From: Immundisolibacterales bacterium
GTDB lineage: Bacteria; Pseudomonadota; Gammaproteobacteria; HK1
Length of the DNA: 64,000 nucleotides
Assembly: GCA_026712715.1 (NCBI GenBank)
Contig: JAPOPW010000034.1
Location: forward strand, 31,720 to 95,719
Direction: 5' to 3'
Positions 18,218 to 59,017 of the stretch are shown here, one piece after another; within the stretch, counting starts at the first letter, position 1, and the number at the start of each line of letters is the position of its first letter. Both the position numbers and the translations under genes were made by a program. Below the pieces are notes generated by a model. The model was not told where the DNA came from. It saw nothing but the letters and a program-made list of their open reading frames with translations, and made no database searches.

Positions 18218-18221
<4 letters not shown>

Positions 18222-40710: not shown

Positions 40711-40750
40711 GCCGGAGCGGCCCTCCTCGGGGGCCGCTCCGGCGTTTTGC
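40711..40750 (+). terminator. Rho-independent terminator
   Basis: The stem gccggagcggccc / gggccgctccggc (13 bp, perfect) has a ~6-nt loop and is followed by GTTTTGCG. It begins 27 nt after the stop at 40684. Confidence 0.65.
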
Positions 40751-41600: not shown

Positions 41601-41630
41601 CCCGCGGTCGGACGCGGGGCCGGGCAGGCG

Positions 41631-42419: not shown

Positions 42420-42449
42420 GGTCGCTCCTCCTGCTACTGGGTGCGAGGG

Positions 42450-44616: not shown

Positions 44617-45067
44617 CCGGCGTCTCCTCCGTTCAACGTTCCGATTCGGTCCGGCCGCGGCCGACACACGGGTCAATGGAAGGTTCGGGAGCTCATTCTC
44701 GGAAGCCCGCCGTCGTGCCGCAAGCGAAGGGAGCTCCCCTGGAGGCCGCGAAGCGGTTTGCTCCACCGTCGTCCTCGCGAGAGGAGATGCCGGCGTGAAA
44801 CGACCGCTTCGTACTGAACCACGGTGCGTACCCGAAACTCGGAGCGCGCTTTACGCAGGGTGAAGGACAGCGGTGCAAGGACAGGTACCTTCGGGGCCCC
44901 GCTCACCGGACCCCGCAAGAACGGGGCAGGGAATCCTTGCAGCGGCCGGAGCGGCGGCGATGCGCGGGGATCCTTGAGGCAGTGAGCGTACGGGGCCGGA
45001 GTGCGACAAGTCCACCGGCGCCAAGCAATGGGCAATCGGATCCTCCATGAAAGGCAAGACTCGGGAG

Positions 45068-47287
45068 TCAATCCAGCGTCCTGGCGACTCGAAAACCGTT
45101 GAAGTGGTTCCGGTGCACGGAGCCGCTCCTGCCGCGAACCGCAGACCGAAGGCTCCCCGGCCTGCTGACCCACGAGCCGCCCCGCAACACACGGTAGTCG
45201 CAGTCACCGTCACCGTCGCGGGTCCACGCACCACCATCCGACGGCGCGCCCCGATAGCTGTCGTGCCAGCAGTCCTCCACCCACTCCCATACGTTTCCGT
45301 GAACGTCGCGAAGGCCGAACGCATTCGCGGTATGCGATCCCACCGGCTCCGTTCGCCCTCCGAAGCGCCCCGTGCGGCCGGAACCATACGCGAAGCTCCC
45401 GTTGTAGTTCGCCTGCTCGGGCGAGACTGTCGACCCGAAGTGGAACGGCGTCGTCGATCCCGCCCGCGCCGCATACTCCCACTCCGACTCGCTCAACAGC
45501 CGGTACTGCGCGTCCGTCTTCCGCGACAGCCAGCGCACGTACTCCCTGGCGTCGTGCCAGCTCACGTTCATGACCGGTCGATCGCCACGCCCCCATCCCT
45601 GATCGTCGGGATGGTGCGAACAACCACCGTCGCGACGGCATGCGTCCCACTCCCGGAACGTCACCTCGTGCACCCCCACCGCGAACGGCTGCGCGATGCT
45701 CACCAGGCGTACGGGACCTTCGTCATGAAAGCGGCCCTCTTCCCATGAGGGCGACCCCATCTCGAAGCTCCCCGCCGGCACCACCACCATCTTCGGACAG
45801 TCGTCGCACTCCCGGAGGTCTTGCCCTGCCGGCCATTTCGGCTTCGACACCTCGGCCAACCGGGTCCGGGCCTCTCCCTCGTGACGCCCCCCTCGCTCCA
45901 GGTACGCCCGATAGCTCGCCAGGGTGTTCAGCCGCCTCGCTTCCGCATACGCCTCGTCGTCCGCGCGCCGGTCCGCTTCTTCCTGCCGGCGTTTCATCGC
46001 GTACGCCTGCCCGTGCGCGACCAGGGCATCGCGGAGCTCCGCCGTCAGATGCCCCGTCTCCGGAAGGCCTTTCTCCTTCTGATAGCTCAGGATCCCGGCG
46101 CGGGTCCGGCGGCCGAACACCCCGTCCGCGCGACCGACGTCCTCGCCGAGCGACGTCAGCCCGTGCTGCACCAGCACCCGCTCCGCGAACGTGAGCCCAA
46201 GCGTCGCCTCCACCGACTCCGCCGTCTCGGCCGATGATGAAGGCGCTTCGATGGCGGCGGCGGTCTTCTTCTCCGGGCCGTCGTCCTTCGTCGGCACGGC
46301 GACGGTTTCCGCGGGCGCCTCGGAACCGGGCCGGGCCGGAAACGCCCCGCCGGCCGCCGCCGTCGCAAGCACCGCATCCTGCACCCCGATCAGACTCGCC
46401 TGCTGGACCCTCCGGTGCTGGCGCCGCGCCGCGCGCGTCATGTGGCGGTCGAGGTAGCGCTTCGCTTCCGCCGCGGTCACCTTTGCATCCCCATCCGCAT
46501 CGCCGCGCCCATGGAGCGCATCGAGGAGGTGGTGGGTGAAGAGGCCGTGGCGCGCGTTCTCGTCCCAGGACGCGATCTGCGTTCCGCTCGCGGCAGTGAG
46601 GGACGTCACCTTGTGCCCCACTCCCTCCGGCAGCGTTGCCTCCACGAACACCGGGCTCGCGTTGCGGATGAGGCCGCCTCCGTGGCTCCCGCCGGAGAAG
46701 CAGGCGTCGATGTACACCCGGACCGAGCCCGCCTCCGCGAGACCGCCCACGTTCCGGTAGAGGAGGTCGATGGGATAGCCGTCGTCTTCGGCCGCCCGCG
46801 GGTCCGCGTCCACCGGCAGGAGGTATCCTCGCCCGTCGTTCAACCCCGGCACCCCGTGCCCGGAGTAGAACACCACCACGTCCGAGCCTCCGTCCGGGTC
46901 GAGGTAGCTCCACAGGAGGCTGCGTGGATCGCTCTTCGTGCCGAGCGCGTCGAAGAGCTCTCTCCGCGTCGCGTCGCGAAGGTCGATGACGTTCACCGGG
47001 TCGAAGCCGAGCACGTCCACCACGTAGCGCCGGAGAGCGCCGGCGTCGCGGTGCGCGAACGTGACGTCCGGGACGTCGCGGTGCTCGTAGTTGGCATTGC
47101 CGATGATTACGGCCACTCCACGCGGATTCGCGAACTCCGCCCGCACCGGGGAAGGAGCCGCGAGGACCGAGATCGCAACGAGGAAGGCGAGCAGGCCGGC
47201 GCAACGGCGGCCGCGGGCTCCGGCGCGGGTCGCGCACGGGGCCGGTACGTTCGGCTCCGAAGGTACAGATCGCATCATTTTGAGCAT
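45068..47287 (-). CDS. Secreted caspase-like (C14) + peptidoglycan-binding + FGE-sulfatase domain protein, paralog 2
   Basis: Track ORF 45068..47341, started at ATG 47287, preceded by AAGGAGGG. The signal peptide ends ...PVRA/EFANP. It has FYSGHG (H144), IDACFSG (C196), the PG-binding module GRADGVFGRRTRAGILSYQ, and the FGE motifs MVVVPAGSFEMGS, HGNVWEWVEDCW and LRGGSW. Confidence 0.85.
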   Translation of the reverse strand: MLKMMRSVPSEPNVPAPCATRAGARGRRCAGLLAFLVAISVLAAPSPVRAEFANPRGVAVIIGNANYEHRDVPDVTFAHRDAGALRRYVVDVLGFDPVNVIDLRDATRRELFDALGTKSDPRSLLWSYLDPDGGSDVVVFYSGHGVPGLNDGRGYLLPVDADPRAAEDDGYPIDLLYRNVGGLAEAGSVRVYIDACFSGGSHGGGLIRNASPVFVEATLPEGVGHKVTSLTAASGTQIASWDENARHGLFTHHLLDALHGRGDADGDAKVTAAEAKRYLDRHMTRAARRQHRRVQQASLIGVQDAVLATAAAGGAFPARPGSEAPAETVAVPTKDDGPEKKTAAAIEAPSSSAETAESVEATLGLTFAERVLVQHGLTSLGEDVGRADGVFGRRTRAGILSYQKEKGLPETGHLTAELRDALVAHGQAYAMKRRQEEADRRADDEAYAEARRLNTLASYRAYLERGGRHEGEARTRLAEVSKPKWPAGQDLRECDDCPKMVVVPAGSFEMGSPSWEEGRFHDEGPVRLVSIAQPFAVGVHEVTFREWDACRRDGGCSHHPDDQGWGRGDRPVMNVSWHDAREYVRWLSRKTDAQYRLLSESEWEYAARAGSTTPFHFGSTVSPEQANYNGSFAYGSGRTGRFGGRTEPVGSHTANAFGLRDVHGNVWEWVEDCWHDSYRGAPSDGGAWTRDGDGDCDYRVLRGGSWVSRPGSLRSAVRGRSGSVHRNHFNGFRVARTLD

Positions 47288-47354
47288 TGCATCCCTCCTT
47301 CCGTTCACCGGCGCATCAAGACGGAGATATCGTCGCTGCACCCGCCGGATTCGT

Positions 47355-49214
47355 TCAATCGTGGACCTGGTAGGGGAGCCAGATCACCGCCATGCGGGCC
47401 GGGTCCTGTCCGGCGAGGGCGGCGAGGAAGCGAGACCCTTCGACCGACTGGCTCATCGTATCCGTGAGACTGGCGCCCGCCGCCCGGGCCATGGCGGCGA
47501 AGTTGATCGGGCTCGGGGACGCAACGACCACGAACGCCTCGTGGTCCTCCCGGTTCCCGGGAACCGGCAGCGGAGCGGAGAGGATCCGCCCCTCCCCGCG
47601 GCGCGGGAGAACGAGGGGCTCTCCGGCGCCGATCACGAGCCTGTCCCGCTCGCGCGGATAGAGCCGCACCACCCGGTTGTCCGCCCCCCACGCGAACAGC
47701 CCGAGATGGGCCGCCTCCTCGCTCCGCAGCTCTACCCGAATGGGCTCCAGCGCCCGGTACACCGTACGGTCGAGACGCGCGCTAACCGCCGGGCGGATGA
47801 CCCGGCCGATCGGCGCGACCCGGGCCGCGAGGCGAAGGGCGACTCTCTGCCCACCGCCGTCTTCGCCCTCGGGTACTGCCTCGTCGAAGCCTTCGTCCAC
47901 CGGGATCCCGGCATCGAGGAACCCTTCGAAGGACATGACCGCATCCGCCTCCGACCTCACCTCCGTCACGCCCGGAGGCGGCCGGCCGAGCGCCTGGGCG
48001 ACGACCCGGGCGCGGGCGAGATTGCGGGCGGCGCGAACGGCGGCCGCCCGGTCGAGGCGCTCGGAGACCACCGCCTCGGCGACCGCCTCGTACATCCGGC
48101 CGGGACTCCCTCCCGCACCGCTCCTCGCCGCCAGCCGAGGGGGCAGGGAGGAGGTCGCGATGTCGGCGCCGGCGGCAACGAGGCTCCGCCCGCGGTGCCG
48201 AAGACGCACCTCGAGGCGGACCCGGTCGTCGTCGAGGCGCCACAAGTCGCCGGCGAGGCGATAGCGCGGGACCTCTCCGCTCGTGTCCGGGGCCGTGCCG
48301 AGCACCGCGGCGACCCGCGCCTCGTCTCCTTCGCGCCGCGCCCGCTCCACGAACTGCCGGACCACCTCGCCTTCGAGGCGCTGGCCGAGGTAGACGCCGA
48401 GGTCTCCCCGCGCCCCGATCGAAACGTCCATCAGCATCACCCGCTCCACCGGACCCACCGCGGGTGCGCCGTCAGCGAGGCGCCGGGCGATCTCGGCCAC
48501 CGCATGGCTGTACGGTGCGGCGGTCCGTTCGAGGGGGAATCGCGCCATCGCGTGGGCCACGGTGACCGTCTCGACGAGGTCGACGGCGCCGCAGGAGAGG
48601 TTCACCCCGTCGGCGACCGGGCTCGCCTTGCAGATGACCTCGACGTCGGCCTGCGCCGCGCGCAGCATGGATTCGACGTCGCCCTGGTAGAACTCCTCGA
48701 GCGTGCCGTAGACCTCGTGAAGACGCTCGCGCGCGAGCACCGCGACGCCCCGGCCCGCGGCGGCGCGGACGATCGCGTTCAGCACCTCCTCGTAGAGCCG
48801 TGCGCCATCCTCCTGCGGCAATCTGGACTCGCGGGGGTCGAGCGGGCGCAGGGCAAGCCGGGCCCCCGGAGGAATGGTGTCGAGGAGCCCGGCCGCCAAA
48901 CGCACGGCCGGCGAGCCGGCCGGCTCCGGATCGGCCGGAGCGGGAGCCGGGTCCGGCGAGGGGGCGGGGACCGGCGGCTCCGCCGGAGCCGACGCCGGAC
49001 GAGGGACCGCGACCTCGCTCGCCGGCAACGCCGGGGCCGCGTCCGCCTGCTGCGGCGCCTTGCCGGCGGCAGGCGCCGGCGCCCCGAGCCCGACGGCCCA
49101 GGCCGCGAGCATGGCCGGAACGGCGGCGACGCGCGGCCACCGGCCCGCGCCTGCCGGACGCCCGATCATCTTCCTCCGCAATCCCGGACCCGAACCATCG
49201 TTGATCCTCGACAT
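47355..49214 (-). CDS. Secreted protein with C-terminal DUF4384 domain
   Basis: Track ORF 47355..49214. It has a signal-like segment (AAVPAMLAAWAVGLGAPAPAAG) and a Pro/Ala-rich linker. The C-terminus YRALEPIRVELRSEEAAHLGLFAWGADNRVVRLYPRE...LVLPRRG...HEAFVVVAS fits the DUF4384 pattern as I remember it. It ends 67 nt upstream of paralog 2. Confidence 0.7.
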   Translation of the reverse strand: MSRINDGSGPGLRRKMIGRPAGAGRWPRVAAVPAMLAAWAVGLGAPAPAAGKAPQQADAAPALPASEVAVPRPASAPAEPPVPAPSPDPAPAPADPEPAGSPAVRLAAGLLDTIPPGARLALRPLDPRESRLPQEDGARLYEEVLNAIVRAAAGRGVAVLARERLHEVYGTLEEFYQGDVESMLRAAQADVEVICKASPVADGVNLSCGAVDLVETVTVAHAMARFPLERTAAPYSHAVAEIARRLADGAPAVGPVERVMLMDVSIGARGDLGVYLGQRLEGEVVRQFVERARREGDEARVAAVLGTAPDTSGEVPRYRLAGDLWRLDDDRVRLEVRLRHRGRSLVAAGADIATSSLPPRLAARSGAGGSPGRMYEAVAEAVVSERLDRAAAVRAARNLARARVVAQALGRPPPGVTEVRSEADAVMSFEGFLDAGIPVDEGFDEAVPEGEDGGGQRVALRLAARVAPIGRVIRPAVSARLDRTVYRALEPIRVELRSEEAAHLGLFAWGADNRVVRLYPRERDRLVIGAGEPLVLPRRGEGRILSAPLPVPGNREDHEAFVVVASPSPINFAAMARAAGASLTDTMSQSVEGSRFLAALAGQDPARMAVIWLPYQVHD

Positions 49215-49495
49215 GGCGACCTCCCCTTGCTTCCCATCATCGTACGGTGCGCTCGGCTACCGCAACGAACAATGGGAGCAATGGGGCGAAATTCCGGGAA
49301 TCGCGCCAACGCCGTCAGGCGCGAGTGCGGTCGTCCTGGCAGCGTCGCCGAGACGGATGATGGCTCAGCGGCCGGCAAGAGGCGCAGGATACGGCAGCTC
49401 CGCACTGCTCTCGTACCGCGGGCGCGGCAACCCCGGAAATGGCCAGGAATCGGCCAGGGGCTCCACCCGCTGGACCCCCGCAAATGAGGCAAGAG

Positions 49496-50971
49496 TCAAT
49501 CCAACGTCCTGGCGACACGAAACCCGACAACGTCGTACCGGTGCCCGGTTTCGCGCCTGTTGCGCAGCGCGGATCGCTGAACCCCCGAACTGCCGATCCA
49601 CGAGCCACCACGCAACACACGCAGATTGCAGTTGCTTCCCGTCGTCCACGCGCGACCGTCCGACGGCGCTCCCGCATAGCTCTCATGCCAGCAGTCCTCA
49701 ACCCACTCCGAGACGTTCCCCGAAACGTCATGCAAGCCATATCGGTTCGGGCTGAAGCTCCCGACCGGTGACGTATGAACATGGCCGTCATCACACGATG
49801 CATGACTCCATCCCACATCGCTGTAGCGCCGCTTCAGTGCCTGGTCCGCTCCGTTCGCATGAACGCACTGGCCGCTCTCACTGCCTCCCCAATGGTGCAA
49901 CGTCGTAGTGCCTCCACGCGCCACGTACTCCCACTCCGACTCGCTCGGCAGCCGGTATTCAGCCCCGGCCTCGCGCGAAAGCCACCGAACGTAGGCCCGC
50001 GCATCCTCCCAGCTCACGCACGCCACCGGATGCTCATCGTCCTGAACGTAGCCCGGTTGGCGCCAGCTTCGTCCCGAACGCTTCTTCCACTCGCCGCCCG
50101 CGTGCGTCCGGCATGAATCGCCTGACGAATGGCCCGTCGCCTCGACGAACCGGCGCCATTCCTCGCGCGTCACCTCGTGCACCCCCACCGCGAACGGCTT
50201 CCGAATTGTCACCCGATGCACCGGACCCTCCTCCGTGAGCCATTGCTCCCACGACGGGGAACCCATCTCGTAGCTGCCTGCCGGGACCACCACCATCTCC
50301 GGACATCCTGGACAATCCCTGAACGTCTTCCCTACCTCCAGCTTCTGTTTCGACACCTCGGCAAGCAAGACCCGGGCTTCCGACTCGTGGCGACCCCCTC
50401 GGTCCAGATACGAGCGATAGCCTCCCGGCGTGTTCAGCCGCTTCGCTTCGAAAAACGCCTCGTCGTCCGCGCGGCGCTCCGGGTCCACACGCAGGCGCTC
50501 CGCCTCGCGGGCTGCCTCTTCCTGCCCCAGCTTCGCCGCATGCGCCTCCCCGCGCGCAACCAGCGCGTCGCGGAGCTCCGCCGTCAAATGCCCCGTCGCG
50601 GCAAGACCCTTCTTCTCCTGGTAGCTCCGGATCCCGGCCCGGGTCCGGCGGCCGAACACCCCGTCCGCTCCGCCGACGTCCTCCCCGAGCGAGGAGAGAC
50701 CGTGCTGAACCAGCACCCGGTCCTCGAACGTGAGACCGAGCGACACCTCCACCGACTCCGGCGTCCGGACCGGCGCGGCCACCGGGGCCTCTTCCCCCGC
50801 AGCGGCACTCGCCGCCTCCGCCGTCCCGGGAATTTCCGCGTCGAGCGACGGGCGGGACAGAAACGCGCCTTCGAAGCTGCTCGAGCGGCTCATCGGAAAG
50901 GACGACAGCCGCCCGCGCGGGGACGGGGCGAGCGGGCGGCCCCGAGCCCGCACGCTTCTCCTTGCCTCCAT
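49496..50971 (-). CDS. Peptidoglycan-binding + FGE-sulfatase domain protein, paralog 3 (no signal peptide, no caspase domain)
   Basis: Track ORF 49496..51112, started at ATG 50971, preceded by GGGAGGGG (ATG 50893 is an alternative). The PG-binding segment is ~85% identical to paralog 2 (LGLTFEDRVLVQHGLSSLGEDVGGADGVFGRRTRAGIRSYQ). FGE motifs are present (MVVVPAGSYEMGS, SGNVSEWVEDCW, LRGGSW). Confidence 0.75.
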   Translation of the reverse strand: MEARRSVRARGRPLAPSPRGRLSSFPMSRSSSFEGAFLSRPSLDAEIPGTAEAASAAAGEEAPVAAPVRTPESVEVSLGLTFEDRVLVQHGLSSLGEDVGGADGVFGRRTRAGIRSYQEKKGLAATGHLTAELRDALVARGEAHAAKLGQEEAAREAERLRVDPERRADDEAFFEAKRLNTPGGYRSYLDRGGRHESEARVLLAEVSKQKLEVGKTFRDCPGCPEMVVVPAGSYEMGSPSWEQWLTEEGPVHRVTIRKPFAVGVHEVTREEWRRFVEATGHSSGDSCRTHAGGEWKKRSGRSWRQPGYVQDDEHPVACVSWEDARAYVRWLSREAGAEYRLPSESEWEYVARGGTTTLHHWGGSESGQCVHANGADQALKRRYSDVGWSHASCDDGHVHTSPVGSFSPNRYGLHDVSGNVSEWVEDCWHESYAGAPSDGRAWTTGSNCNLRVLRGGSWIGSSGVQRSALRNRRETGHRYDVVGFRVARTLD

Positions 50972-51162
50972 GATGCCCCTCCCTGCAAGTTGCGGGCGCA
51001 ATCCAGTTTCGGCAACGAAAGGACGAGACCCCCAGCCTCGATGGACCGGCCCGCGCCGCGCCGGGGTTCGGACCGCGTGCACGACCGGGCAAAACGCGCC
51101 AGAACCTTCCATTGCGGGGTACGACTGGTACCGACCCGCAAGGCGGGGAAAGGAGCACTCTC

Positions 51163-52047
51163 ATGCAGCAGTCGAGCGGAACGGGGCGCGGCATCCGGCG
51201 CGCGGCCCTCGTCCTCGCGGCCGGGCTCGGCCCGGGCGCCGTCGTCCTTCCCCTGGCGGCCGGGGCCGCGATCTACGTCGATCCGGCAACCGCCGTCGTC
51301 GAGGACCGGGCCGCCGTCCAGCGGCTGGTCGTCGCGGAGGCGGTGCGAAACGGGGTGGTCCCCGCTCCCCTCGCCCTCGCAGTGGTCGAGGTCGAGTCGG
51401 AATTCGTCCCGCGGACGGTCGGCACGTCCGGTGCAATCGGACTCATGCAGATCCTCCCCGCCGTCGCGGAGCGCGAGTTCGCGGCCAATGCGGACGCGCT
51501 CTGGGAGCCGGTGACGAACCTTCGCATGGGCCTTGGCCGCCTCGCACGACTCCACGACCGCTACGACGGCGACTGGGAGCTCGCCCTCTCGCACTTCCGG
51601 GGCGGTGAGCTGCGGCGCGAAGCCGGGCGCTACGTCGCGCACGGCTACACGCTCGGCTACGTCGAGCGGGTGATGCGCGGCTGGCGGCGCTACCAGCGCG
51701 ACCCGCTCGTTCGGGCCTGGATCCGGGGGGCACGGGGAGTTCCGCGCTTCGTCGCGGCGGATGCGCTCCCTCGTTTCGAGACGCGGTCGGCCTTGGCAAC
51801 ACCGCCGATCCGGTGGGAGAGCGCGGCGGATTCAACCCGTCCGCGCCACCATCTTCGCGGCCATCACCACCGCCTCACCGATCGGTGCGACGAGACGCAC
51901 GCGGCGCGCCGGCCGGCCGGGTACCGCTTCGGCCGCAGCGGCGGAAGCGGCGGACGGTGGACGGCGATCGAAGGTGCGCCCTCCCCTGCTCTTCGCTTTC
52001 GCGACGGCCGGTGGGTGGCGGTCACCGGCGGCCCACGCTTCCGCTAG
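51163..52047 (+). CDS. Lytic transglycosylase (SLT domain) protein
   Basis: This lies in track ORF 51112..52047, starting at ATG 51163, preceded by AAAGGAG. It has a signal peptide. VVEVESEF (catalytic Glu) and SGAIGLMQI motifs are present. Confidence 0.8.
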   Translation: MQQSSGTGRGIRRAALVLAAGLGPGAVVLPLAAGAAIYVDPATAVVEDRAAVQRLVVAEAVRNGVVPAPLALAVVEVESEFVPRTVGTSGAIGLMQILPAVAEREFAANADALWEPVTNLRMGLGRLARLHDRYDGDWELALSHFRGGELRREAGRYVAHGYTLGYVERVMRGWRRYQRDPLVRAWIRGARGVPRFVAADALPRFETRSALATPPIRWESAADSTRPRHHLRGHHHRLTDRCDETHAARRPAGYRFGRSGGSGGRWTAIEGAPSPALRFRDGRWVAVTGGPRFR

Positions 52048-52556
52048 GCTCCTTGACGTGCCCCGATCCATAAAGATGATTCAAGTTTGCAAATCGGTTT
52101 CAGGAACCGAAACGTACGAGGCTGCTACCACTACCCAGCAGCCGGGTCTTGAACCAGGATGGGTGGCTTCGAACCGGTCTCGTCGTCCTGACGCGCAGCC
52201 TCGCTGGGATTCCGGGGCGCATCGTGTTCGATAGCTCGCTATTTCCGCGACCAGGCACGGTCGAGCTTGGGCAGGATGTCGGCCTCTCCCGCGGGCTCGT
52301 TCCGTCCGTGCCCCGGCACGAACACGGAAGGCGCGGCGGTGATGGTGCGCCCGAGAACCAGCGTCCCGGCGGCCGAGGAGACACTGCGCCGAGGCCGCCG
52401 GCGCTCGGTTGCCTCTTCCGGTTCGCGGCACGCCCCGAAGGCCCGGAGCGCGCCCTCGATGCGCGAATGCCCCTGCCGTTCGGTCACGGGGGCAATCTTT
52501 GCAGTGCGCGTGCGAGCGCTTATTCTCCGGCTTTCGGCGAGAGGCGGAGAGGGTGC

Positions 52557-54353
52557 ATGGGCGAGAGGGCCAGGGTCCGGCTCATCCGGGGCGCGCAGAG
52601 CGACGAGCTGCGCGCGACCTTCCGCCAGCTCGCCGAGCTCGACGGACCGAACGGTCCGAAATTCCCGCGACGGGTCCTCATGGAGCTTGCGGCCCGGATC
52701 GTGGGCCGGGCCTACGAGCCGATGCTGCTCGAGCTCTCCCACCTCGCGCGCGCCGCCCGGCTGGCAACGCAGGGGCTGCCGGGAGGGCGGCGCGGCGCGG
52801 ACGCAGGGGCCGGCTTCGAGTGGCTCTTCTGGGGCGTCGAGGAGGCACGGGCCGGTGCGTTCCGGGCCGCCTTCCTCGAATCGAACGGCACCTTCGCGAG
52901 CCCCGCCCCACCTCCGGCGACCCATGACGACGAGGGCCGGTCCGGCGCGGCGGGCGGCGCGCTCCGCATCGGGGAGGACGGCGTCATCCTCAGCTACCCG
53001 GACGGCCGGTTCGAGCTCCGGTACGGACGCATGGTGGACCTCGCCGCAATGATGGAGCTGCTCGTCTCCACCCTCGGCTACCGCGCGCTCGTCGATGTCC
53101 TCGATCCGCTCGCGGCGCCCGTCGTCGACCGCGGGACGGTCGCGGGAGCCGCCCGCGACCTCGCCCGCCGGTTCTACGAGTGGCTGGGCGGCCATCTCCC
53201 GACCGCCCAGGCGCAACGCAAGTTCCACGCGATGATCGCGTTCCTCGAAGAGTCGCTCGGGGCCGACTTCACGGACGAGGACATCGACGACGAGGCGGTC
53301 CTTCGCTTCTGGCTCCGCCAGGTTGCGCCCGCCGGCGGCGAGACGCCGGCGGGCGGCGCGGGCACCGACTTTCGCGGCTACCGCAACACCTTCCTCGCCT
53401 TCCTCGCCCTCGCCCGGGTGCTCGAGGAAGGGGCGGAGCGCGGGCGCTTCGAGCGGCACGTGTCGATCGGCTCCGACTTCGAGGCGGGGGAGATTGACCC
53501 TGCGGCCGAGTCCGCGGCAACGCCGGAGGGCGCGGCCGAGTTCGACCCCCTCGCGCTGCTCCAGGAGGAGCCGGCCGCCGTGATCAAGGCGCTCAACCAG
53601 CGCGAGCTCACCCTCCTCCGGCTCCCGGTCGGAGAAAACGACGGGGTGCGGCGCCTGCCCCGCTCGTACCTGCGGGCCGAGTGCTTCGGTCCGGTGCAGA
53701 ACCGCCTGTCGCAGGCGCTACGCCGCAAGGCGGGCGCGGCGGAGCTCGCGGCGGTGGTCGCGGCCGGGCCGGATCCGGGCTATCGCGCCCGGATCGAAGC
53801 ACTGAAGAAGGCCGACGTGCACGTGCGCCGGGTGGCCAGGGCGTGCCTCTTCGTCCTGCACCGGATGGGGGGCGACGCGGGCGGCGGCGGCGGCGAACGC
53901 GACCGCGGACGCGCGAAGACCGGCCCCGGCGAGGGAAGCGAGAGCGGCGTCGGGCCGGTGCTCGACTTCCGGCTTCTCGGGGAAGCCCGCAAGGCATTCG
54001 AAGGACTGAACCGCGCGGGCTTCGAGCGCTCCGCCCCGAGCGACCCCGAGCTCGCGCCCGCCTACGGCGCGCTCGCGGACACCTTGCCGTGCGTCGCCGA
54101 ACGTCTGGGGGCGGTCCTTCTCACCTTCGGTCCGCCGGACTCGTGGGAGCGCGCCGAGGCGGAGGATCGCGCGGTCTTCTCGCGCACCTTCGCCCGGCTC
54201 TACGGCGCGGCGACGAACGAGCCGCCGCCGGAACCGGACGGGGAGGCGCGAGGACGCGGTGGCGCTTGCAGCACGCGCGGCGACGGCGGACCGATCCGGT
54301 CGCCGCCCCCGCCGCGCACGAGCCCGGCACGACCGGCGGGAGGACGACCATGA
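52557..54353 (+). CDS. Hypothetical protein (598 aa), no recognisable domain
   Basis: This lies in track ORF 52149..54353, starting at ATG 52557, preceded by GGAGAGGG. It has coding-like GC3 bias and an acidic/helical composition. It is translationally coupled (ATGA) to the next gene. Confidence 0.6.
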   Translation: MGERARVRLIRGAQSDELRATFRQLAELDGPNGPKFPRRVLMELAARIVGRAYEPMLLELSHLARAARLATQGLPGGRRGADAGAGFEWLFWGVEEARAGAFRAAFLESNGTFASPAPPPATHDDEGRSGAAGGALRIGEDGVILSYPDGRFELRYGRMVDLAAMMELLVSTLGYRALVDVLDPLAAPVVDRGTVAGAARDLARRFYEWLGGHLPTAQAQRKFHAMIAFLEESLGADFTDEDIDDEAVLRFWLRQVAPAGGETPAGGAGTDFRGYRNTFLAFLALARVLEEGAERGRFERHVSIGSDFEAGEIDPAAESAATPEGAAEFDPLALLQEEPAAVIKALNQRELTLLRLPVGENDGVRRLPRSYLRAECFGPVQNRLSQALRRKAGAAELAAVVAAGPDPGYRARIEALKKADVHVRRVARACLFVLHRMGGDAGGGGGERDRGRAKTGPGEGSESGVGPVLDFRLLGEARKAFEGLNRAGFERSAPSDPELAPAYGALADTLPCVAERLGAVLLTFGPPDSWERAEAEDRAVFSRTFARLYGAATNEPPPEPDGEARGRGGACSTRGDGGPIRSPPPPRTSPARPAGGRP

Positions 54354-55093
54354 GCAGGCCGTGGAGCGCAAGGAGCGAGGCGGAACGAAAACGAATGGAG
54401 GCGGCGTTCGTGGCCCGCCACGGCGCCGAGATGCTGCTCGACGGCGATTCGGAGCCTCCGCCCGCGACCGGAGACGAGTTGCCGCCCGGAACGCTGCGTC
54501 CGGGCCGCCGACTTCCCTTCGCGCACCTCCACGCGTCCCTGCGCGGTGGCCGGCCGCTGCCGCCCGAGGTCTCGGCCGCGCTTCGATCGGACCCCGCGCT
54601 CCGCGACGACTTCGCGCTCCTCGTCCGCCGGAGCGCCCGCCAGCACCTGCCGCGCGCGGCCGCCGCGGCGGGGCGTGAAGGCATTCTCCGGCGCGAGGCG
54701 GGGGGGTTCGTCGTCCGCCTCGTCGCGTCGCGGGCCGGCCGCGACCAGGTCTACCTCCTCGTCGAGCTGCCCGAGGAGGTGGCCGCGGAGGCACAGGTGC
54801 GGGCAGGACCGGATGCAAACGGTTCCGGGCGCCAGCCGGCGGAGGTTCGGGCGGCTGACGACCGGATCGGCGGGGACCCCGCGCCCGACGCGGCGGGCGG
54901 AACGCCCCCGCCCGCCGCCCGACGCGCGGCGCCTGCCGCACCGGATCGGATGGTCGTGCGGACCGCGGACGGGGAATTCCTGAAGCAGGCCCTCCCGTCG
55001 CCCGAAGACCGCACCGTGCGACTCGTGATGGAGGCGGACGACCCGCTGATACGGGCGGTGGCCGAACCCGCGAGCGAGATCTATCTGCTGTGA
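54350..55093 (+). CDS. Hypothetical protein (247 aa)
   Basis: This lies in track ORF 53681..55093. ATG 54350 is preceded by GGGAGGA and overlaps the upstream TGA. I recognised no family. Confidence 0.55.
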   Translation: MSRPWSARSEAERKRMEAAFVARHGAEMLLDGDSEPPPATGDELPPGTLRPGRRLPFAHLHASLRGGRPLPPEVSAALRSDPALRDDFALLVRRSARQHLPRAAAAAGREGILRREAGGFVVRLVASRAGRDQVYLLVELPEEVAAEAQVRAGPDANGSGRQPAEVRAADDRIGGDPAPDAAGGTPPPAARRAAPAAPDRMVVRTADGEFLKQALPSPEDRTVRLVMEADDPLIRAVAEPASEIYLL

Positions 55094-55259
55094 GGGCCGC
55101 CGGCGAGACGACACTCCGCCGCCGCGGCGGACGGGACGCCGCGGTGCGCGAGTCCGGGCCGCGCGAGGCCGGCCGGAGTCCGCCTGCCGGATTCGGGGTG
55201 CCGCGGGGCACGGCCCCGCGCCGCTCTTCCGTCCGCCGCCGCCGCGAACGAAGCCGCGC

Positions 55260-56882
55260 GTGAACCGGATCCGGGTGTTCATCGCGACCACGGAGGGGCC
55301 GGTTGCGGTGCAGAAGATTACCGCCGAGGACCCGGACGTTCCGTCCGTCGCCTGCCGCGACGGCACCACCGAGGTCCTCGCGATCTCACGCGACTACACC
55401 CGCTTCGTCGAGCGGGGCACCGGCCTGGTGGCGGCGCTCACCGGCCACGGCGCGTACCGCCTGGATCTGGACCGGCCGGTGGACGGCGGGCGGAGCTGGC
55501 AGCTACCGGTGCTGCTGGCCCACCTCCTCGAGGCCGAGGGGCGCCTCGCGGGGCCGGACGAGCCCGCCGACCTCGCGCTCCTCGCGACCGGGGAGGTCGA
55601 CCGCGATCAGCGGGTGCGGCGGGGCGGCCGGATCCCCGAGAAGCTCGCCGCCGCGAACGACCTCGTCACCCGGCACCGGCAAGCCGGCCCGCCCCTGGTG
55701 GTGCTGGTGCCGGCGGCGGATCGGACACCCGCGATCGATGCGGCGCCGCCGGCGCCGGGCGGCGACTTCGAAGGCATGGTGTCGGTGCTCGCCTGGGAGC
55801 GGGTCATGGGTCTCACCGACCTCGAGGCGGCGCCGGCGGGCCGGTTGGCACCGCATGCGGGACGGGCGCCGGGCGATGCCCCGGACCCGCAAGCGGGCGC
55901 GGGCGGAGGCGCATCACGCGCCGTCCCGAAAGACGCCGCCCGGCGGGCGGCGGAGAGCGGCACGGGCAACGGCTCGCATCGCGGCCCCACCGGCGACTCC
56001 GGGGACGTGGACGCTCCCCCGCGCCGGCCCGCGAATCCGTCCACGCCGTCACGAGAGCACGCCGCCGCCGAACCGGACCCGGATCCGGTTCCGGCCCCGC
56101 CGGGCGGAGCGGCCGCCGCACGCCCCCGGCGCCGGACGGGGCGGACGGCCACCGCGATCCTTCTCGTCGCGGCAGTGGCGGGGGCAGCGTCCGGAGCCGC
56201 CTGGTGGAACGGCCCGCGGGACTGGGAGATGCTGCGTCGCGCGGGAGACTACGAGGGTCTCGAACGCGCCCTCCGGCAGTCCGTCGTCGCTCCCCTGGCC
56301 GATCGGTACCGGTCCGGACTCCTCGCCGGCGCGCCCGCCCCGGAGAGCCTCGTCTTCAGCCTCGTGGAGCAACGGACGGCGGACGGGCAGCCCTGCGATC
56401 CGGGCGGCTTCCGCGACGCGGACCGCACGGAGCGCGCCCGCCTGGCGGGGACCCCCATGCCCCCCCTCAGGCCGGGGTTCTTTCGCTCCGAGGGGGGCGC
56501 GAGCCTCTGCCGGGCGGTGTATCGCGTCGCCAACGAGGGCGAGCGGCTGGTCTACGTCTACTTCGCGGTCCGGCCGTCGCTCTCGTCGGCGGCCGGCAAG
56601 GCGGAGGCTCCGGCGGTCCGGCGCGCTGCCGCCCTCCCCCCCGGCGCGAGCCTCGCTCTCGACCTCGACCTCGACCTCCGGCTCTTTCGGGACCGGATTC
56701 TCGGTGCCGACCTGCTGGTCCTCGCCGCCCCCAGCCCGTCCCCACAGATTCGCCACGCATTCGAGCTCGCGTCGGAGGCCGGCGCGGGGAGCCGTGCACG
56801 GGGGGCGGCTCCGCTCGATCTCACCGCACTGCCCGCGCTCGGCCTCACCGTCAAGGGGGCGAGCCACGCCATCCTGCGGTAG
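55260..56882 (+). CDS. Membrane protein with N-terminal Lon-protease-like (S16 fold) domain, one TM helix and a C-terminal extracytoplasmic domain
   Basis: Track ORF 55260..56882 (GTG start). PVDGGRSWQLPVLLAHLL...LLATGEVDRDQRVRRGGRIPEKLAAAN...VVLVPAAD parallels Lon_C (DGPSAGIA...AMTGEITLRGxVLPIGGLKEKLLAAHR...VLIPxxN). The TM helix is TATAILLVAAVAGAASGAAWW, around aa 300. Confidence 0.55.
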   Translation: MNRIRVFIATTEGPVAVQKITAEDPDVPSVACRDGTTEVLAISRDYTRFVERGTGLVAALTGHGAYRLDLDRPVDGGRSWQLPVLLAHLLEAEGRLAGPDEPADLALLATGEVDRDQRVRRGGRIPEKLAAANDLVTRHRQAGPPLVVLVPAADRTPAIDAAPPAPGGDFEGMVSVLAWERVMGLTDLEAAPAGRLAPHAGRAPGDAPDPQAGAGGGASRAVPKDAARRAAESGTGNGSHRGPTGDSGDVDAPPRRPANPSTPSREHAAAEPDPDPVPAPPGGAAAARPRRRTGRTATAILLVAAVAGAASGAAWWNGPRDWEMLRRAGDYEGLERALRQSVVAPLADRYRSGLLAGAPAPESLVFSLVEQRTADGQPCDPGGFRDADRTERARLAGTPMPPLRPGFFRSEGGASLCRAVYRVANEGERLVYVYFAVRPSLSSAAGKAEAPAVRRAAALPPGASLALDLDLDLRLFRDRILGADLLVLAAPSPSPQIRHAFELASEAGAGSRARGAAPLDLTALPALGLTVKGASHAILR

Positions 56883-57098: not shown

Positions 57099-58844
57099 TC
57101 AGCGGCGGTTGAGGATTCCGCCCATGATGGTGCCGAAGACCTTCAGGGCCTGCGTCGCCTGCTGCTCCTCCGCCTGTCGCCGATCGCGCAAGCCGCGCGC
57201 CTCCGCAACGTGGCGGCCCCGGGGGAACGCCAACAGATACTCGTGATAGCCGGCCGCGGTGTTCGCCGCCTTCGCCCGCACGAACGCATCGTCGTCCGCG
57301 GCCTGGCGCTTCAGCGTCTCGGCATGCCGCAGCGCATCGCGCTCCCGGCGGGCCTCCGCCACGTGGATCCCGTCCGGAAACATGCCGAGGTACTCGTCGT
57401 ACCCCGCCACCGTGCCGAGCGTCCTGGCCCATGCGAACGCGTCGTCGTCCGCCGCCTTCCGCTTCGCGTCCGCGGCCTTGCGCTTCGCGTCCGCTTCGTT
57501 CCGGGCCGCGGTCAGCCGCTCGCGCTCGCGGCGCTCCGCCTCCACGTTCGCCCGTGCCTGCGCCGCCCGCCCGAACGGCTCCAGCGCAGCCACCTGCCCG
57601 CCCGTGAGATAACCCGTCGGCGAGTATCCCTTCGAGGACTGCCAGCCGCGGATCCCCCGCCGCGTTCGCGGCCCGAACTTCCCGTCCGCGCCACCGACGT
57701 CGAAGTCGAGGGCATTGAGGGCGTGCTGGATCAGGCGGCGGTCCTGCCGGAGGAGTCCGAGCCCCGCCTCGACCTCCCGCGGCGTCAGCGAGGACGGCAC
57801 GGCCGGGGCGGAAGCCGCAGGCGCGGCTGGGGCGGAAACCGCGACCTGCCCTGCGCCGGTGGCCGGAGCGGTCTTGCTCCCGCCCGCCGGGAGGTCTTCC
57901 GTGGCCGGCTGCGTCTCGACGAGGGCCAGCTCCGGCCGGTCCGGGAACCCTCTGCCGCCCGCGAAGGCGGCGAGCACGGTGTCGGCGTTTCCGGTGAAGC
58001 TCACCCGCTGCCGCCGCTTGTAGGTACGGCGCGCCGCGCGGGTCATGTGGCGGTCGAGGTACGCCTTCGCCTCCCGGGCGGTCACCCGCCCGTCCGTGTC
58101 CGCATCGCTCTTGCCGTAGAGGGCGTCGAGGAGGTGATGCGTGAACAGGCCGTGACCCGCCTCGTGATCCCACGACGCGAGCTGCTCCCCCGTCGCCGCG
58201 GTCAGCACCGAGAGGCGCTCCCCGGCCTGCGCGGGAAGGTCGGCGCCGACGTAGACCGGAGAGGCGGACCGGATGAGCATCCCGCCGCCGCCGCTCCCGC
58301 CCGAGAAGCACGCGTCGAGGTACACCGCGACCGAGCGGGCTTCTTCGAGACTGGACAGGTTCTCGTACAGGACGTCGATGGGGTAGCCGTTCAGCTCCGC
58401 GGTATTCGGGTCGGCGTTCACCGGCAGGAGGTAGCCGCGCTTGTCCTCGAGCCCCGGCGCTCCGTGCCCGGAATAGAAGACCACCACGTCCGACCGGCCA
58501 TCGGGGTCGAGGTACGACCAGAGCTCGCTCCGATCCGCGGTCGCCCGGCTCCCGAAGGTGGACCACATCTCGGCCTGGGTCGCGTCACGGAGATCGATGA
58601 CGTTCTCCGGGTCGAACCCGAGCACGTCGACCACGTATCGCCGGAACGCCTCGGCGTCGCGGTGGGCGAACTCCACGTCCGGGATATCGCCCTGGTAGGT
58701 CCGGTTGCCGATGATGACCGCCACCCCGTCCGGGTTCGCGAACTCCGCACGCGCGGGGACGAAGGAGCCGGCGACCGCCGCCGAAATCAAGGCGCACCCG
58801 AGCATGAGAGAGCGAGAGACCGCCCGTGTCGCTTGCGCTGCCAT
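57099..58844 (-). CDS. Secreted caspase-like (C14) + peptidoglycan-binding + coiled-coil protein, paralog 4 (no FGE domain)
   Basis: Track ORF 57099..58865, started at ATG 58844, preceded by GGAGGG. The signal peptide ends ...PARA/EFANP. It has FYSGHG (H127), LDACFSG (C179) and the PG-binding module GGADGKFGPRTRRGIRGWQ. Two tandem copies of a DDDAF...GY.EYL..FP.G.HVAEAR motif lie near the C-terminus. Confidence 0.85.
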   Translation of the reverse strand: MAAQATRAVSRSLMLGCALISAAVAGSFVPARAEFANPDGVAVIIGNRTYQGDIPDVEFAHRDAEAFRRYVVDVLGFDPENVIDLRDATQAEMWSTFGSRATADRSELWSYLDPDGRSDVVVFYSGHGAPGLEDKRGYLLPVNADPNTAELNGYPIDVLYENLSSLEEARSVAVYLDACFSGGSGGGGMLIRSASPVYVGADLPAQAGERLSVLTAATGEQLASWDHEAGHGLFTHHLLDALYGKSDADTDGRVTAREAKAYLDRHMTRAARRTYKRRQRVSFTGNADTVLAAFAGGRGFPDRPELALVETQPATEDLPAGGSKTAPATGAGQVAVSAPAAPAASAPAVPSSLTPREVEAGLGLLRQDRRLIQHALNALDFDVGGADGKFGPRTRRGIRGWQSSKGYSPTGYLTGGQVAALEPFGRAAQARANVEAERRERERLTAARNEADAKRKAADAKRKAADDDAFAWARTLGTVAGYDEYLGMFPDGIHVAEARRERDALRHAETLKRQAADDDAFVRAKAANTAAGYHEYLLAFPRGRHVAEARGLRDRRQAEEQQATQALKVFGTIMGGILNRR

Positions 58845-59017
58845 CTTCCACCCTCCGTCCATCACCGACCCGACTGCGGCGGAGGGCCCTCCCAGCCGAT
58901 GGTGCGCGCACCCGGCGGCGTCCGCCGGTCGTCGGAGAACGGCTCCCCGCGTCGCTAACGGTGCACCCGCGGCCCGCCGCCTGTCAACCGGGCGAAGAGA
59001 TCACCCCCGGCATCTGC

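What the first reader, a model, noticed from the sequence alone, without database searches (positions are those of the whole stretch)
52557..56882. Uncharacterised three-gene operon ending in a membrane protein with a Lon-like (S16-fold) cytoplasmic domain
The genes are 52557-54353 (598 aa), 54350-55093 (247 aa, ATGA-coupled) and 55260-56882 (540 aa). None has a family I recognise, except the N-terminus of the third.

That N-terminus aligns by eye with the Lon proteolytic domain. DGGRSWQLP matches DGPSAGIA, ATGEVD...V..GGRIPEKLAAA matches MTGEI...V.PIGGLKEKLLAA, and VVLVPAAD matches VLIPxxN. A Ser and a Lys sit at the dyad-equivalent positions.

A single TM helix follows, then a C-terminal domain that loosely resembles a DUF4384-type pattern (ERLVYVYFAV ... 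LLVLAAPSP).

The architecture is a cytoplasmic Lon-like module wired through the membrane to a periplasmic domain. It is embedded among periplasmic caspase-like proteases, which suggests a trans-envelope signalling or activation device.
Basis: inference. Interest (0 to 1): 0.65.

Follow-up and report, generated by a model that had tools for sequence, protein, structure and literature searches.

The report
Membrane-anchored Lon-like protease operon
Three real, tightly linked genes of unknown function end in an inner-membrane protein whose cytoplasmic head has the fold and the serine-lysine catalytic pair of the Lon protease; this trio recurs in many uncultured marine bacteria and in no curated protein family, so it is probably an undescribed envelope-linked proteolytic switch.

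Summary
The three genes are real: A 52557-54353, B 54350-55093 (ATGA overlap with A) and C 55260-56882. None matches Pfam, NCBIfam, PADLOC or PHROGs.

The Lon reading of C holds. The six best PDB fold matches of the AlphaFold model are all Lon proteolytic domains (E 3.5e-5). A profile alignment puts S79, T110-G111-E112 and K128 on E. coli Lon S679, T704-G705-E706 and K722. S79 and K128 are invariant in 78 relatives of 23-38% identity. C has no ATPase. It has one N-in membrane helix and a variable periplasmic beta-sandwich with a conserved cysteine pair. The DUF4384 resemblance is not supported.

The head domain defines a large family (at least 820 clusters at E<=1e-10). A-B-C keep the same order and strand in about 80 loci. 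B is fused to C in one lineage. A lytic transglycosylase (SLT) gene sits directly upstream in 34 of 40 loci. Caspase genes accompany only about a third.

A is a confident all-alpha model with no PDB or viral fold match.

Best reading, inferred: a sensor-gated cytoplasmic protease that cleaves B and thereby controls A. A diverged copy on a Methylobacterium aquaticum megaplasmid is a candidate culturable test bed.

The parts
51112..52047 (+). SLT-domain lytic transglycosylase with a signal peptide. It is the conserved fourth member of the cassette, directly upstream of A.
   Evidence: Pfam SLT E=3.7e-16. N-terminal hydrophobic segment. An SLT ORF lies directly upstream of A in 34 of 40 loci.
52040..52230 (+). 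About 190-nt repeated element at the start of the unusually long SLT-A spacer (52048-52556). An inverted copy lies at 40740-40930.
   Evidence: blastn and alignment, 70-80% identity. Contig depth is 4-5 times higher here, and unrelated contigs match it. It contains the only sigma70-like site, 52053-52080. No Rfam or tRNA match.
52557..54353 (+). Gene A: 598-aa cytoplasmic, almost all-alpha protein of unknown fold. No signal peptide, membrane helix or P-loop.
   Evidence: Frame plot. 76 homologues, none with a Pfam domain. AlphaFold pLDDT 79.9, pTM 0.75. No PDB or viral fold match, best E 0.5 and 1.3. No PDB sequence match. No Walker A motif.
54350..55093 (+). Gene B: 247-aa cytoplasmic protein, ATGA-coupled to A. 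It has two conserved blocks split by a variable low-complexity linker, and an invariant P-R-A-A-A-A-A motif at residues 101-107 (AAA at >=90% in the wider family).
   Evidence: B is fused to the N-terminus of C in P0299, with three cluster members on three contigs.
55260..55739 (+). Gene C residues 1-160: cytoplasmic Lon-fold domain without an ATPase. Putative Ser-Lys dyad S79 (55494-55496) and K128 (55641-55643), with T110-G111-E112.
   Evidence: The top six Foldseek PDB hits are Lon proteolytic domains, E 3.5e-5 to 3.4e-4. hhalign gives S79=S679, TGE=T704-G705-E706, K128=K722. S79 and K128 are invariant in 78 sequences of 23-38% identity. The family has at least 820 clusters at E<=1e-10.
55833..56138 (+). 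Gene C residues 192-293: disordered Pro/Ala/Gly-rich linker of variable length.
   Evidence: pLDDT below 50 over 192-294. Large length variation in the alignment.
56139..56204 (+). Gene C residues 294-315: single transmembrane helix, N-terminus inside.
   Evidence: Helix 294-315 in the model. Hydropathy. Across the family, 63 of 78 have exactly one such segment, with mean K+R of 3.0 before and 1.0 after it.
56217..56882 (+). Gene C residues 320-540 plus stop: periplasmic helical stalk and beta-sandwich domain with a near-invariant Cys pair (C379, C417). Much more variable than the head domain.
   Evidence: Model strands 364-538. Weak Ig-like/FnIII-like/MSP Foldseek hits. C379 and C417 nearly invariant. 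Two Cys after the helix in 58 of 71 sequences. Median identity 19% against 46% for the head. No DUF4384 hit.
57099..58865 (-). Accessory: periplasmic caspase-like protease (C14 + PG_binding_1), convergent with C.
   Evidence: Pfam. Signal peptide and YSGHG/DACFSG motifs.
45068..51112 (-). Accessory block: C14+PG_binding+FGE-sulfatase (45068-47341), U2 (47355-49214, weak DUF4384, cluster c13) and PG_binding+FGE-sulfatase (49496-51112). Transcribed divergently from SLT-A-B-C.
   Evidence: Pfam. The c13 family recurs near A-B-C in other loci. Signal peptides on the first two.
36821..44766 (.). Further accessory envelope genes of the same island: C14+PG_binding+FGE (36821-39637 -), lipoprotein U3 (about 39644-40684 +, cluster c10), OmpA-family (41631-42419 -), 185-aa lipoprotein (42450-43007 -) and S8 subtilase (43081-44766 -).
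   Evidence: Pfam. U3 HMM hit E=1.4e-96. Frame plot for U3. Signal peptides and lipoboxes. The same mix (caspase, serine protease, OmpA, U3) flanks A-B-C in L001 and on the Methylobacterium aquaticum megaplasmid.

Best explanation
SLT-A-B-C is a conserved envelope-linked cassette whose enzyme is C. C is a bitopic inner-membrane protein with four parts: an N-terminal cytoplasmic, ATPase-less Lon-fold peptidase domain (putative dyad S79/K128); a disordered linker; one membrane helix; and a variable, disulfide-bonded periplasmic beta-sandwich.

Proposed mechanism. The periplasmic domain senses a cell-wall or envelope cue, plausibly connected with the co-encoded lytic transglycosylase and, in this genome, with the peptidoglycan-tethered periplasmic caspases. 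Sensing changes the oligomeric or conformational state of C and switches on the cytoplasmic protease. The protease then cleaves the small partner B, which carries an invariant P-x-x-A-A-A motif. That cleavage releases or activates the large novel-fold protein A as the cytoplasmic output. This would be outside-in signalling by regulated proteolysis, in logic like the CalpL-CalpT-CalpS Lon-protease switch.

Shown here: the genes, the fold, conservation of the dyad, the topology indicators, the synteny and the B-C fusion.

Inferred only: catalytic activity, B as substrate, A as output, and the nature of the signal.
For: Fold. The six best PDB matches are all Lon proteolytic domains.

Dyad. Profile alignment puts S79, T110-G111-E112 and K128 on Lon S679, T704-G705-E706 and K722. 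S79 and K128 are invariant in 78 homologues of 23-38% identity, alongside T10, C32, R67, D69 and H88.

No ATPase. There is no P-loop and no AAA+ hit in A, B or C.

Topology. One membrane helix, positive-inside charge bias, and an even number of Cys after the helix.

Receptor-like pattern. The head is conserved (median 46% identity) and the periplasmic part is variable (19%), with occasional Sel1, SAM or TPR replacements.

Linkage. A-B-C keep the same order and strand, mostly with overlapping stops and starts, in about 80 loci. A natural B-C fusion appears on three contigs, with A upstream and no separate B.

Envelope context. SLT lies directly upstream in 34 of 40 loci. All other island proteins carry signal peptides or lipoboxes.

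Precedent. CalpL is a ligand-gated Lon-type protease in a three-part system with a cleaved partner (bioRxiv 10.1101/2024.05.08.593097; PMC12751052).
Against: No biochemical or expression evidence was obtained. The runs found look like metagenomic DNA assemblies.

At sequence level the domain is not recognisably Lon_C. The hhalign score is weak (P=0.005, probability 7-14%) and Foldseek TM-scores are only about 0.5. Residues 23-70 of the model have pLDDT 51-65.

Nothing identifies A as a regulator or effector. It has no fold or family match.

B has no structure model. Its AAA motif as a cleavage site is a guess.

A dedicated SLT is more typical of wall-spanning machines than of signalling pathways. 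Relatives carry about ten further envelope genes downstream, which fits a machine.
Confidence: 0.42

Rival explanations
1. A-B-C is the cytoplasmic and inner-membrane base of a wall-spanning envelope machine for secretion, a surface structure or envelope remodelling. The SLT opens the peptidoglycan for it. The Lon-like head of C matures or recycles machine subunits, or is merely a scaffold. A and B are platform or chaperone components rather than a signalling pair.
For: A dedicated SLT lies directly upstream in 34 of 40 loci. In many relatives A-B-C sit inside a unidirectional cluster of about 15 genes and about 12 kb, bounded by metabolic genes. That cluster encodes lipoproteins, signal-peptide proteins, a four-helix membrane protein, N-anchored Pro-rich proteins and a Gly-zipper outer-membrane lipoprotein (L046 5913-17852). 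In the window and in Methylobacterium the flanks are also all envelope proteins: OmpA, lipoproteins, PG-binding proteases.
Against: The downstream D-J genes are absent from the window and from L001, L002, L009 and Methylobacterium, so they are not required with A-B-C. No component matches any known secretion, pilus or stator family in Pfam. My by-eye MotA/ExbB, ExbD and TonB guesses got no HMM support even at E<=5. No ATPase is present to power a machine. The periplasmic proteins nearby have ordinary Sec signal peptides.
Confidence: 0.28
2. It is an anti-phage or abortive-infection module. Envelope damage during infection is sensed by C. The protease then unleashes a toxic effector (A), and/or the periplasmic caspases and subtilase act as executioners.
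For: Caspase-like, subtilase and FGE-domain proteins, which are common in conflict systems, flank the operon. L001 has two AAA_15/AAA_21+DUF4276 pairs and an integrase nearby. A PIN toxin gene borders the window island. One copy lies on a mobilizable megaplasmid. Accessory genes vary between loci.
Against: A, B and C give no PADLOC or PHROGs hit. There is no match in 50,697 phage records. Many loci are flanked by housekeeping metabolic genes, not defence genes. C14 accompanies only 8 of 23 loci. The caspases are exported, so they cannot act on cytoplasmic phage targets.
Confidence: 0.12
3. The Lon-like head is a non-catalytic binding module, like the Lon-related domains of RadA/Sms or ComM. 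The conserved Ser and Lys bind a ligand or a partner instead of cleaving peptide bonds.
For: No Lon_C sequence signature is detectable. Extra invariant residues (C32, R67, D69, H88) do not belong to the classical Lon site. The existence of non-proteolytic Lon-fold domains rests on my own knowledge of RadA and ComM.
Against: Foldseek ranks true Lon proteolytic domains first, not RadA or ComM. Ser, the TGE threonine-glycine and Lys are all kept at the catalytic positions and are invariant over a very divergent family. That pattern is expected for an active dyad.
Confidence: 0.1

Closest known systems
Lon protease proteolytic domain (MEROPS S16, Pfam Lon_C; E. coli Lon 3wu6/3wu3, B. subtilis LonBA 8dvh, human LONP1 7ksm)
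   Same: Same fold; these are the top six Foldseek hits. Same order of elements: strand, DGxS loop, helix, TGE strand, strand, (E)K-helix, hydrophobic strand ending in P. Ser, Thr-Gly-Glu and Lys align with S679, T704-G705-E706 and K722.
   Different: No detectable Lon_C sequence signature. No AAA+ module or Lon N-domain. The domain is at the extreme N-terminus, followed by a linker, a membrane helix and a periplasmic domain. It has additional invariant residues (T10, C32, Y46, R67, D69, H88).
CalpL-CalpT-CalpS (type III CRISPR SAVED-Lon protease, anti-sigma factor, ECF-like sigma factor; bioRxiv 10.1101/2024.05.08.593097, PMC11417357, PMC12751052)
   Same: An ATPase-less Lon-type protease fused to a sensor domain and encoded with two dedicated partners. 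The logic of ligand-gated cleavage of a partner to give a cytoplasmic output is the model I propose here.
   Different: The sensor here is periplasmic and reached through a membrane helix; it is not a cytoplasmic SAVED domain. A and B have no sigma or anti-sigma Pfam signatures, and A is 598 aa. There is no CRISPR context. Cleavage is not shown here.
YlbL/SepM-type membrane-anchored Lon_C proteases (SepM: PMC11197336)
   Same: ATP-independent Lon-type peptidase tethered to the membrane by a single helix and used for signalling (SepM processes the CSP-21 peptide).
   Different: In my recollection those have an N-terminal anchor followed by PDZ and Lon_C outside the cell. Here the Lon-like domain is cytoplasmic, no PDZ is present and Pfam Lon_C does not hit.
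LonC-type Lon-like protease without ATP-powered unfolding (PMC3391209)
   Same: A Lon-fold protease that does not use ATP hydrolysis.
   Different: As I recall, LonC keeps a degenerate AAA-like module and forms a soluble chamber. C has no such module at all and is membrane-anchored.
Regulated proteolysis across the membrane (site-1/site-2 protease cascades such as DegS-RseP/RseA; general knowledge)
   Same: An envelope cue is converted into a cytoplasmic response by proteolysis.
   Different: There the sensing protease is periplasmic and a membrane-embedded metalloprotease finishes the job. Here a single protein would sense outside and cut inside, using a Lon fold.

Membership tests
MEROPS S16 / Pfam Lon_C (PF05362) | Significant sequence match to the Lon_C profile or to Lon sequences | tested here: not met
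   No Pfam hit at E<=1. None in 78 family members. phmmer and hmmsearch against PDB sequences find no Lon. Only a pairwise hhalign match, P=0.002-0.005.
MEROPS S16 / Pfam Lon_C (PF05362) | Lon proteolytic-domain fold | tested here: met
   Foldseek top six hits are 3wu6_F, 8dvh_B, 3wu3_B, 7ksm_B, 6x1m_C and 3wu3_E, with E 3.5e-5 to 3.4e-4, probability 1.0 and target TM about 0.5.
MEROPS S16 / Pfam Lon_C (PF05362) | Ser-Lys catalytic dyad at the equivalent positions, conserved in homologues | tested here: met
   S79=S679 and K128=K722 in the profile alignment. Both are invariant in 31 close and 78 distant homologues. They are also present in the divergent Methylobacterium copy.
MEROPS S16 / Pfam Lon_C (PF05362) | Peptidase activity dependent on the Ser | not testable with these tools
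   Needs an enzyme assay.
LonA/LonB ATP-dependent Lon | AAA+ ATPase module in the same polypeptide | tested here: not met
   No AAA Pfam hit. No Walker A in A, B or C. The Lon-like domain starts at residue 1.
CalpL-type SAVED-Lon tripartite system | SAVED sensor domain, and sigma and anti-sigma partners | tested here: not met
   No SAVED, Sigma70_r2/r4 or anti-sigma Pfam hits in A, B or C at E<=1. No PADLOC hit.
YlbL/SepM-type PDZ-Lon_C proteases | N-terminal anchor, PDZ domain, extracytoplasmic Lon_C | tested here: not met
   No PDZ or Lon_C hit. The Lon-like domain precedes the helix on the K/R-rich side.
DUF4384 (PF14326), for the C-terminal domain of C | Match to the DUF4384 profile | tested here: not met
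   No hit at E<=1. hhalign of the C-terminal profile against the neighbouring weak-DUF4384 family U2 gives P=0.84.
Known anti-phage defence systems (PADLOC-DB 2.0) | Match of any component to a defence-system model | tested here: not met
   No hits for A, B or C at E<=1.
The new family itself (Lon-like head, TM, periplasmic domain, with partners A and B) | N-terminal head with the IATTxGP, SVVCL, YDAFVR, GxSWQL and TGEVD...K motifs, encoded directly after A-like and B-like genes | tested here: met
   The window protein scores E=5e-107 against the family HMM, with A (5e-250) and B (6e-104) upstream.

The most novel reading that the evidence does not exclude
SLT-A-B-C is the core of a previously unrecognised, widespread proteobacterial envelope system. 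In it, a single bitopic protein senses the periplasm or cell wall and fires an ATP-independent Lon-fold protease inside the cell (a 'one-protein, outside-in' proteolytic relay). That protease cleaves B to release A, an effector with a fold not yet seen in the PDB. Lineage-specific envelope modules plug into this core: periplasmic PG-tethered caspases, subtilase, OmpA and a lipoprotein in this sponge symbiont and in Methylobacterium, or a block of about ten unknown envelope genes in marine relatives.
Probability: 0.3. Interest if true: 0.8.

Novelty: new variant of a known kind. Interest (0 to 1): 0.62.

Why it matters
If correct, this adds a large new family (hundreds of clusters at 50% identity) to the Lon-fold Ser-Lys peptidases. 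Its architecture has not been described: protease head in the cytoplasm, sensor in the periplasm, no ATPase.

It would also define a new way of passing envelope information across the inner membrane, and assign a context to two orphan protein families. One of them (A) has a confidently predicted fold with no PDB or viral fold match.

It gives a first functional handle on the puzzling exported, peptidoglycan-binding caspase-FGE proteins of Proteobacteria. It also exposes a block of about 15 unknown envelope genes in marine bacteria.

A diverged but recognisable copy on a Methylobacterium aquaticum MA-22A megaplasmid makes the question open to experiment.

Tried and rejected
Lon by sequence. Pfam, NCBIfam, phmmer and hmmsearch against PDB gave no Lon hit. 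Only fold search and pairwise hhalign connect C to Lon.

DUF4384 for the C-terminal domain: rejected.

Gene B as a shadow of the minus-strand ORF 54200-55369: rejected. That translation is Arg-rich nonsense, and B has 38 homologues.

Fold or family for A: no PDB or viral fold match and no PDB sequence match. The sigma-factor chain at rank 3 has E=0.95 and is noise.

Family for B: nothing in Pfam or PDB.

Defence system: no PADLOC or PHROGs hits and no phage-genome match.

MotA/ExbB, ExbD and TonB readings of relatives' proteins G, U1/H and I, which I suspected by eye: no Pfam support even at E<=5.

Homology between C's periplasmic domain and any neighbouring protein family: none.

Rfam and tRNA search of the operon and its long spacers: nothing.

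Transcript evidence: the runs holding the sequence look like DNA-type metagenome or holobiont assemblies with flat depth, and say nothing about co-transcription.

It was repeated with a 27-sequence subset. The 80 loci therefore all carry the YDAFVRxPT motif and are a biased sample of the family.

Building a Lon profile from the fetched loci: no Lon genes were present.

Full report
1. The observation.

The window is about 70% G+C, so long spurious ORFs abound. A codon-position GC plot shows the + strand frames of 52557-54353 (A), 54350-55093 (B) and 55260-56882 (C) to be the coding ones.

The only serious competitor is a minus-strand ORF over gene B. It translates to Arg-rich shadow sequence, whereas B has 38 database homologues.

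A's TGA overlaps B's ATG (ATGA at 54350-54353), with a GGGAGG eight bases upstream. A's ATG 52557 and C's GTG 55260 agree with the N-termini of all homologues.

None of the three proteins matches Pfam, NCBIfam, PADLOC or PHROGs.

2. Protein C.

AlphaFold2 on a 31-sequence alignment (mean pLDDT 70.7) gives four parts:
- a folded N-terminal alpha/beta domain, residues 1-160;
- a disordered segment, 192-294;
- one long helix, 294-315;
- a helical stalk plus beta-sandwich, 320-540.

Foldseek against 350,542 PDB chains returns Lon proteolytic domains as the six best hits: E. coli 3wu6/3wu3, B. subtilis LonBA 8dvh, human LONP1 7ksm and 6x1m. Their E-values are 3.5e-5 to 3.4e-4, probability 1.0 and target TM about 0.5. 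The C-terminal part gives only weak Ig-like, FnIII-like or MSP matches.

Sequence methods alone do not see Lon. A direct hhalign of the family profile against the E. coli Lon P-domain does align residues 75-158 with Lon 675-744. It places S79 on S679, T110-G111-E112 on T704-G705-E706 and K128 on K722 (P=0.005 for this single comparison).

S79 and K128 are invariant in 31 close homologues. They are also invariant in 78 representatives that share only 23-38% identity with the window protein, together with T10, C32, Y46, F49, V50, G55, R67, D69, G77, H88 and G111.

A, B and C contain no P-loop or AAA+ signature.

Topology was checked across the 78 sequences:
- 63 have exactly one hydrophobic segment after the head;
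- K+R averages 3.0 in the 15 residues before it and 1.0 after it;
- the part after it carries two Cys in 58 of 71 sequences. C379 and C417 are nearly invariant.

This fits a cytoplasmic head and an oxidising periplasmic tail.

The head is far better conserved than the tail (median 46% against 19% identity). A few members replace the tail with Sel1, SAM or TPR modules.

The DUF4384 resemblance is not supported.

3. Size of the family.

A profile of the head domain was scored against 1.84 billion cluster representatives. It finds 1000 proteins at E<=1e-3 (possibly a cap), 820 at E<=1e-10 and 319 at E<=1e-30. Almost all are 350-560 aa with the domain at the very N-terminus.

No Pfam model covers it in any of 78 members. 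Named members are all 'hypothetical protein', from Thiotrichales, Magnetococcales, Alpha- and Gammaproteobacteria MAGs. The window itself comes from sponge metagenomes.

4. Partners and synteny.

A has 76 homologues and B has 38, on the same contigs as C homologues.

In two genomes examined first, the order A-B-C is kept with 4-nt overlaps. The same holds for distant members P0211 and P0292 and for a 41%-identical Rhodospirillales copy that has no caspase nearby.

I then fetched 80 metagenomic loci (28-67% identity) and searched six-frame ORFs with HMMs of A, B and C. Essentially every locus with upstream sequence has A, then B, then C on one strand. The exceptions are L060, and B below threshold in L070, L072 and L091.

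One lineage encodes a B-C fusion of 656 aa. It is seen in three cluster members on three contigs, with A immediately upstream and no separate B. This is a classical indication that B and C act together physically.

B has two conserved blocks separated by a variable low-complexity linker, and an invariant P-R-A-A-A-A-A motif. AAA is conserved at >=90% over 74 diverse B sequences.

A is modelled with high confidence (pLDDT 79.9, pTM 0.75) as an almost all-helical protein with one small sheet. It has no fold match in PDB (best E 0.5) or BFVD (best E 1.3) and no PDB sequence match.

5. Wider context.

An SLT lytic transglycosylase ORF ends within 1.5 kb upstream of A in 34 of 40 loci. The conserved unit is therefore SLT-A-B-C, not just the three genes.

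C14 caspase and FGE-sulfatase genes are near only 8 and 6 of 23 well-flanked loci.

Two accessory 'flavours' exist.

(i) The window type. An island of about 22 kb (36.8-58.9 kb) carries:
- three exported caspase-like proteins with PG-binding domains, two of them also with FGE domains, all with intact His/Cys motifs;
- a PG-binding FGE protein;
- an S8 subtilase;
- an OmpA-family protein;
- two lipoproteins (U3 and a 185-aa protein);
- U2.

These rest. L001 (caspase-FGE, S8 subtilase, U3), L004 and L007 (caspase-FGE, U2; U3 also in L007), and L002 (caspase and FGE only) carry parts of this mix. On the mobilizable megaplasmid pMaq22A_2p of the cultured Methylobacterium aquaticum MA-22A the order is caspase, two unannotated genes, A, B, C, serine protease, OmpA, U3. 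There the HMM scores are A 1.5e-28, B 1.8e-8, C 1.6e-33 and U3 9.5e-59, and Ser and Lys are kept.

(ii) A marine type. SLT-A-B-C sit in a unidirectional cluster of about 15 genes and about 12 kb. It encodes lipoproteins, secreted coiled-coil proteins, a four-helix membrane protein, N-anchored Pro-rich proteins and a Gly-zipper lipoprotein, and is bounded by metabolic genes. None has a Pfam family except SLT and the Gly-zipper (L046 5913-17852). The window lacks these genes.

6. Mechanism.

What is shown:
- a cytoplasmic Lon-fold head with an invariant Ser/Thr-Gly/Lys constellation;
- no ATPase;
- N-in single-pass topology indicators;
- a variable periplasmic domain;
- obligate linkage to two cytoplasmic proteins, one of which can be fused to the protease;
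- near-obligate linkage to a periplasmic peptidoglycan-cleaving enzyme;
- an envelope-only neighbourhood.

The best-fitting model is a receptor-protease. A periplasmic cue related to the cell wall gates the cytoplasmic Lon-like peptidase. The peptidase cleaves B and thereby controls A. This works like the CalpL-CalpT-CalpS switch (bioRxiv 10.1101/2024.05.08.593097; PMC11417357; PMC12751052), but the system is not a member of that family: there is no SAVED, sigma or anti-sigma signature. I give the full model about 0.4. The narrower statement 'C is an N-in membrane protein with a Lon-fold, probably active Ser-Lys peptidase head' I would put near 0.85.

The main rival (about 0.3) is that A-B-C is the base of a wall-spanning machine for which the SLT makes room. 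A defence role (about 0.1) and a non-catalytic head (about 0.1) are not excluded.

7. Comparison with known families.

By fold and dyad, C belongs with the Lon-type peptidases. By sequence it fails the Lon_C/S16 membership test and lacks the AAA+ module of LonA/LonB. It also lacks the PDZ and outside orientation of YlbL/SepM (PMC11197336), and (from memory) the degenerate AAA-like chamber of LonC (PMC3391209).

I therefore file it as a new family-level variant of a known kind of enzyme, sitting in a gene cassette that has not been described in the libraries and literature I could search.

8. Limits.
- There are no activity, expression or interaction data.
- Residues 23-70 of the C model are of modest confidence.
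- The residue-level Lon alignment rests on one weak profile comparison, plus matching secondary-structure order.
- The 80 metagenomic loci were selected by one peptide motif.
- Gene calls in the loci are six-frame ORFs, and several neighbour clusters were contaminated by shadow ORFs.

Noticed in passing
window 52040-52230 (+) and 40740-40930 (reverse): A repeated element of about 190 nt (70-80% identity) sits after the SLT gene and, inverted, after lipoprotein gene U3. Metagenome contig depth is 4-5 times higher over 51996-52269 and unrelated contigs match it, so it is multi-copy in this genome. It accounts for part of the unusually long 510-nt SLT-A spacer and contains the only sigma70-like site of the region. 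No Rfam or tRNA match.
   Followed up: partly
window 36821-39637 (-), 45068-47341 (-), 57099-58865 (-): Three paralogous exported caspase-like proteins have near-identical signal-peptide ends (ARAEFANP), intact YSGHG and DACFSG catalytic motifs, and PG_binding_1 domains. Two of them also carry FGE-sulfatase domains. These are peptidoglycan-tethered periplasmic caspases of unknown role.
   Followed up: partly
L046 5913-17852 (also L011, L028, L033, L043, L049, L050, L059): Relatives embed SLT-A-B-C in a unidirectional cluster of about 15 envelope genes: lipoproteins, secreted coiled-coil proteins, a four-helix membrane protein, Pro-rich N-anchored proteins and a Gly-zipper lipoprotein. None has a Pfam family apart from SLT and the Gly-zipper. 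It is bounded by metabolic genes. My by-eye MotA/ExbD/TonB guesses found no HMM support.
   Followed up: partly
L092 5676-9358 (protein P0299): A natural fusion of B to the N-terminus of C (656 aa) is found on three independent contigs, with A directly upstream and OmpA and a 346-aa gene nearby.
   Followed up: yes
L093 (Methylobacterium aquaticum MA-22A plasmid pMaq22A_2p, 406396-416618): A cultured strain carries a diverged copy of the island, in this order: caspase family protein, two unannotated genes, A, B, C, serine protease, OmpA, U3. All but the named ones are annotated 'hypothetical'. No SLT was detected there.
   Followed up: partly
window 55094-55259: A G+C-rich spacer of 166 nt separates B from C in the window. 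In most relatives B and C overlap by 4 nt. No terminator-like site was found in it.
   Followed up: no
window 59018-59494 (-): A PIN-domain gene (probable toxin of a toxin-antitoxin pair) lies just beyond the right-hand caspase gene and may mark the island border.
   Followed up: no
L001 13695-18755: Two tandem AAA_15/AAA_21 ATPase + DUF4276 gene pairs and an rve integrase lie next to the cassette in a Pseudomonadales MAG. This is a defence-island-like neighbourhood.
   Followed up: no
window 12042-18221 (+): A very long ORF (2059 aa) with good coding statistics was seen in the first GC3 screen. It was not examined.
   Followed up: no
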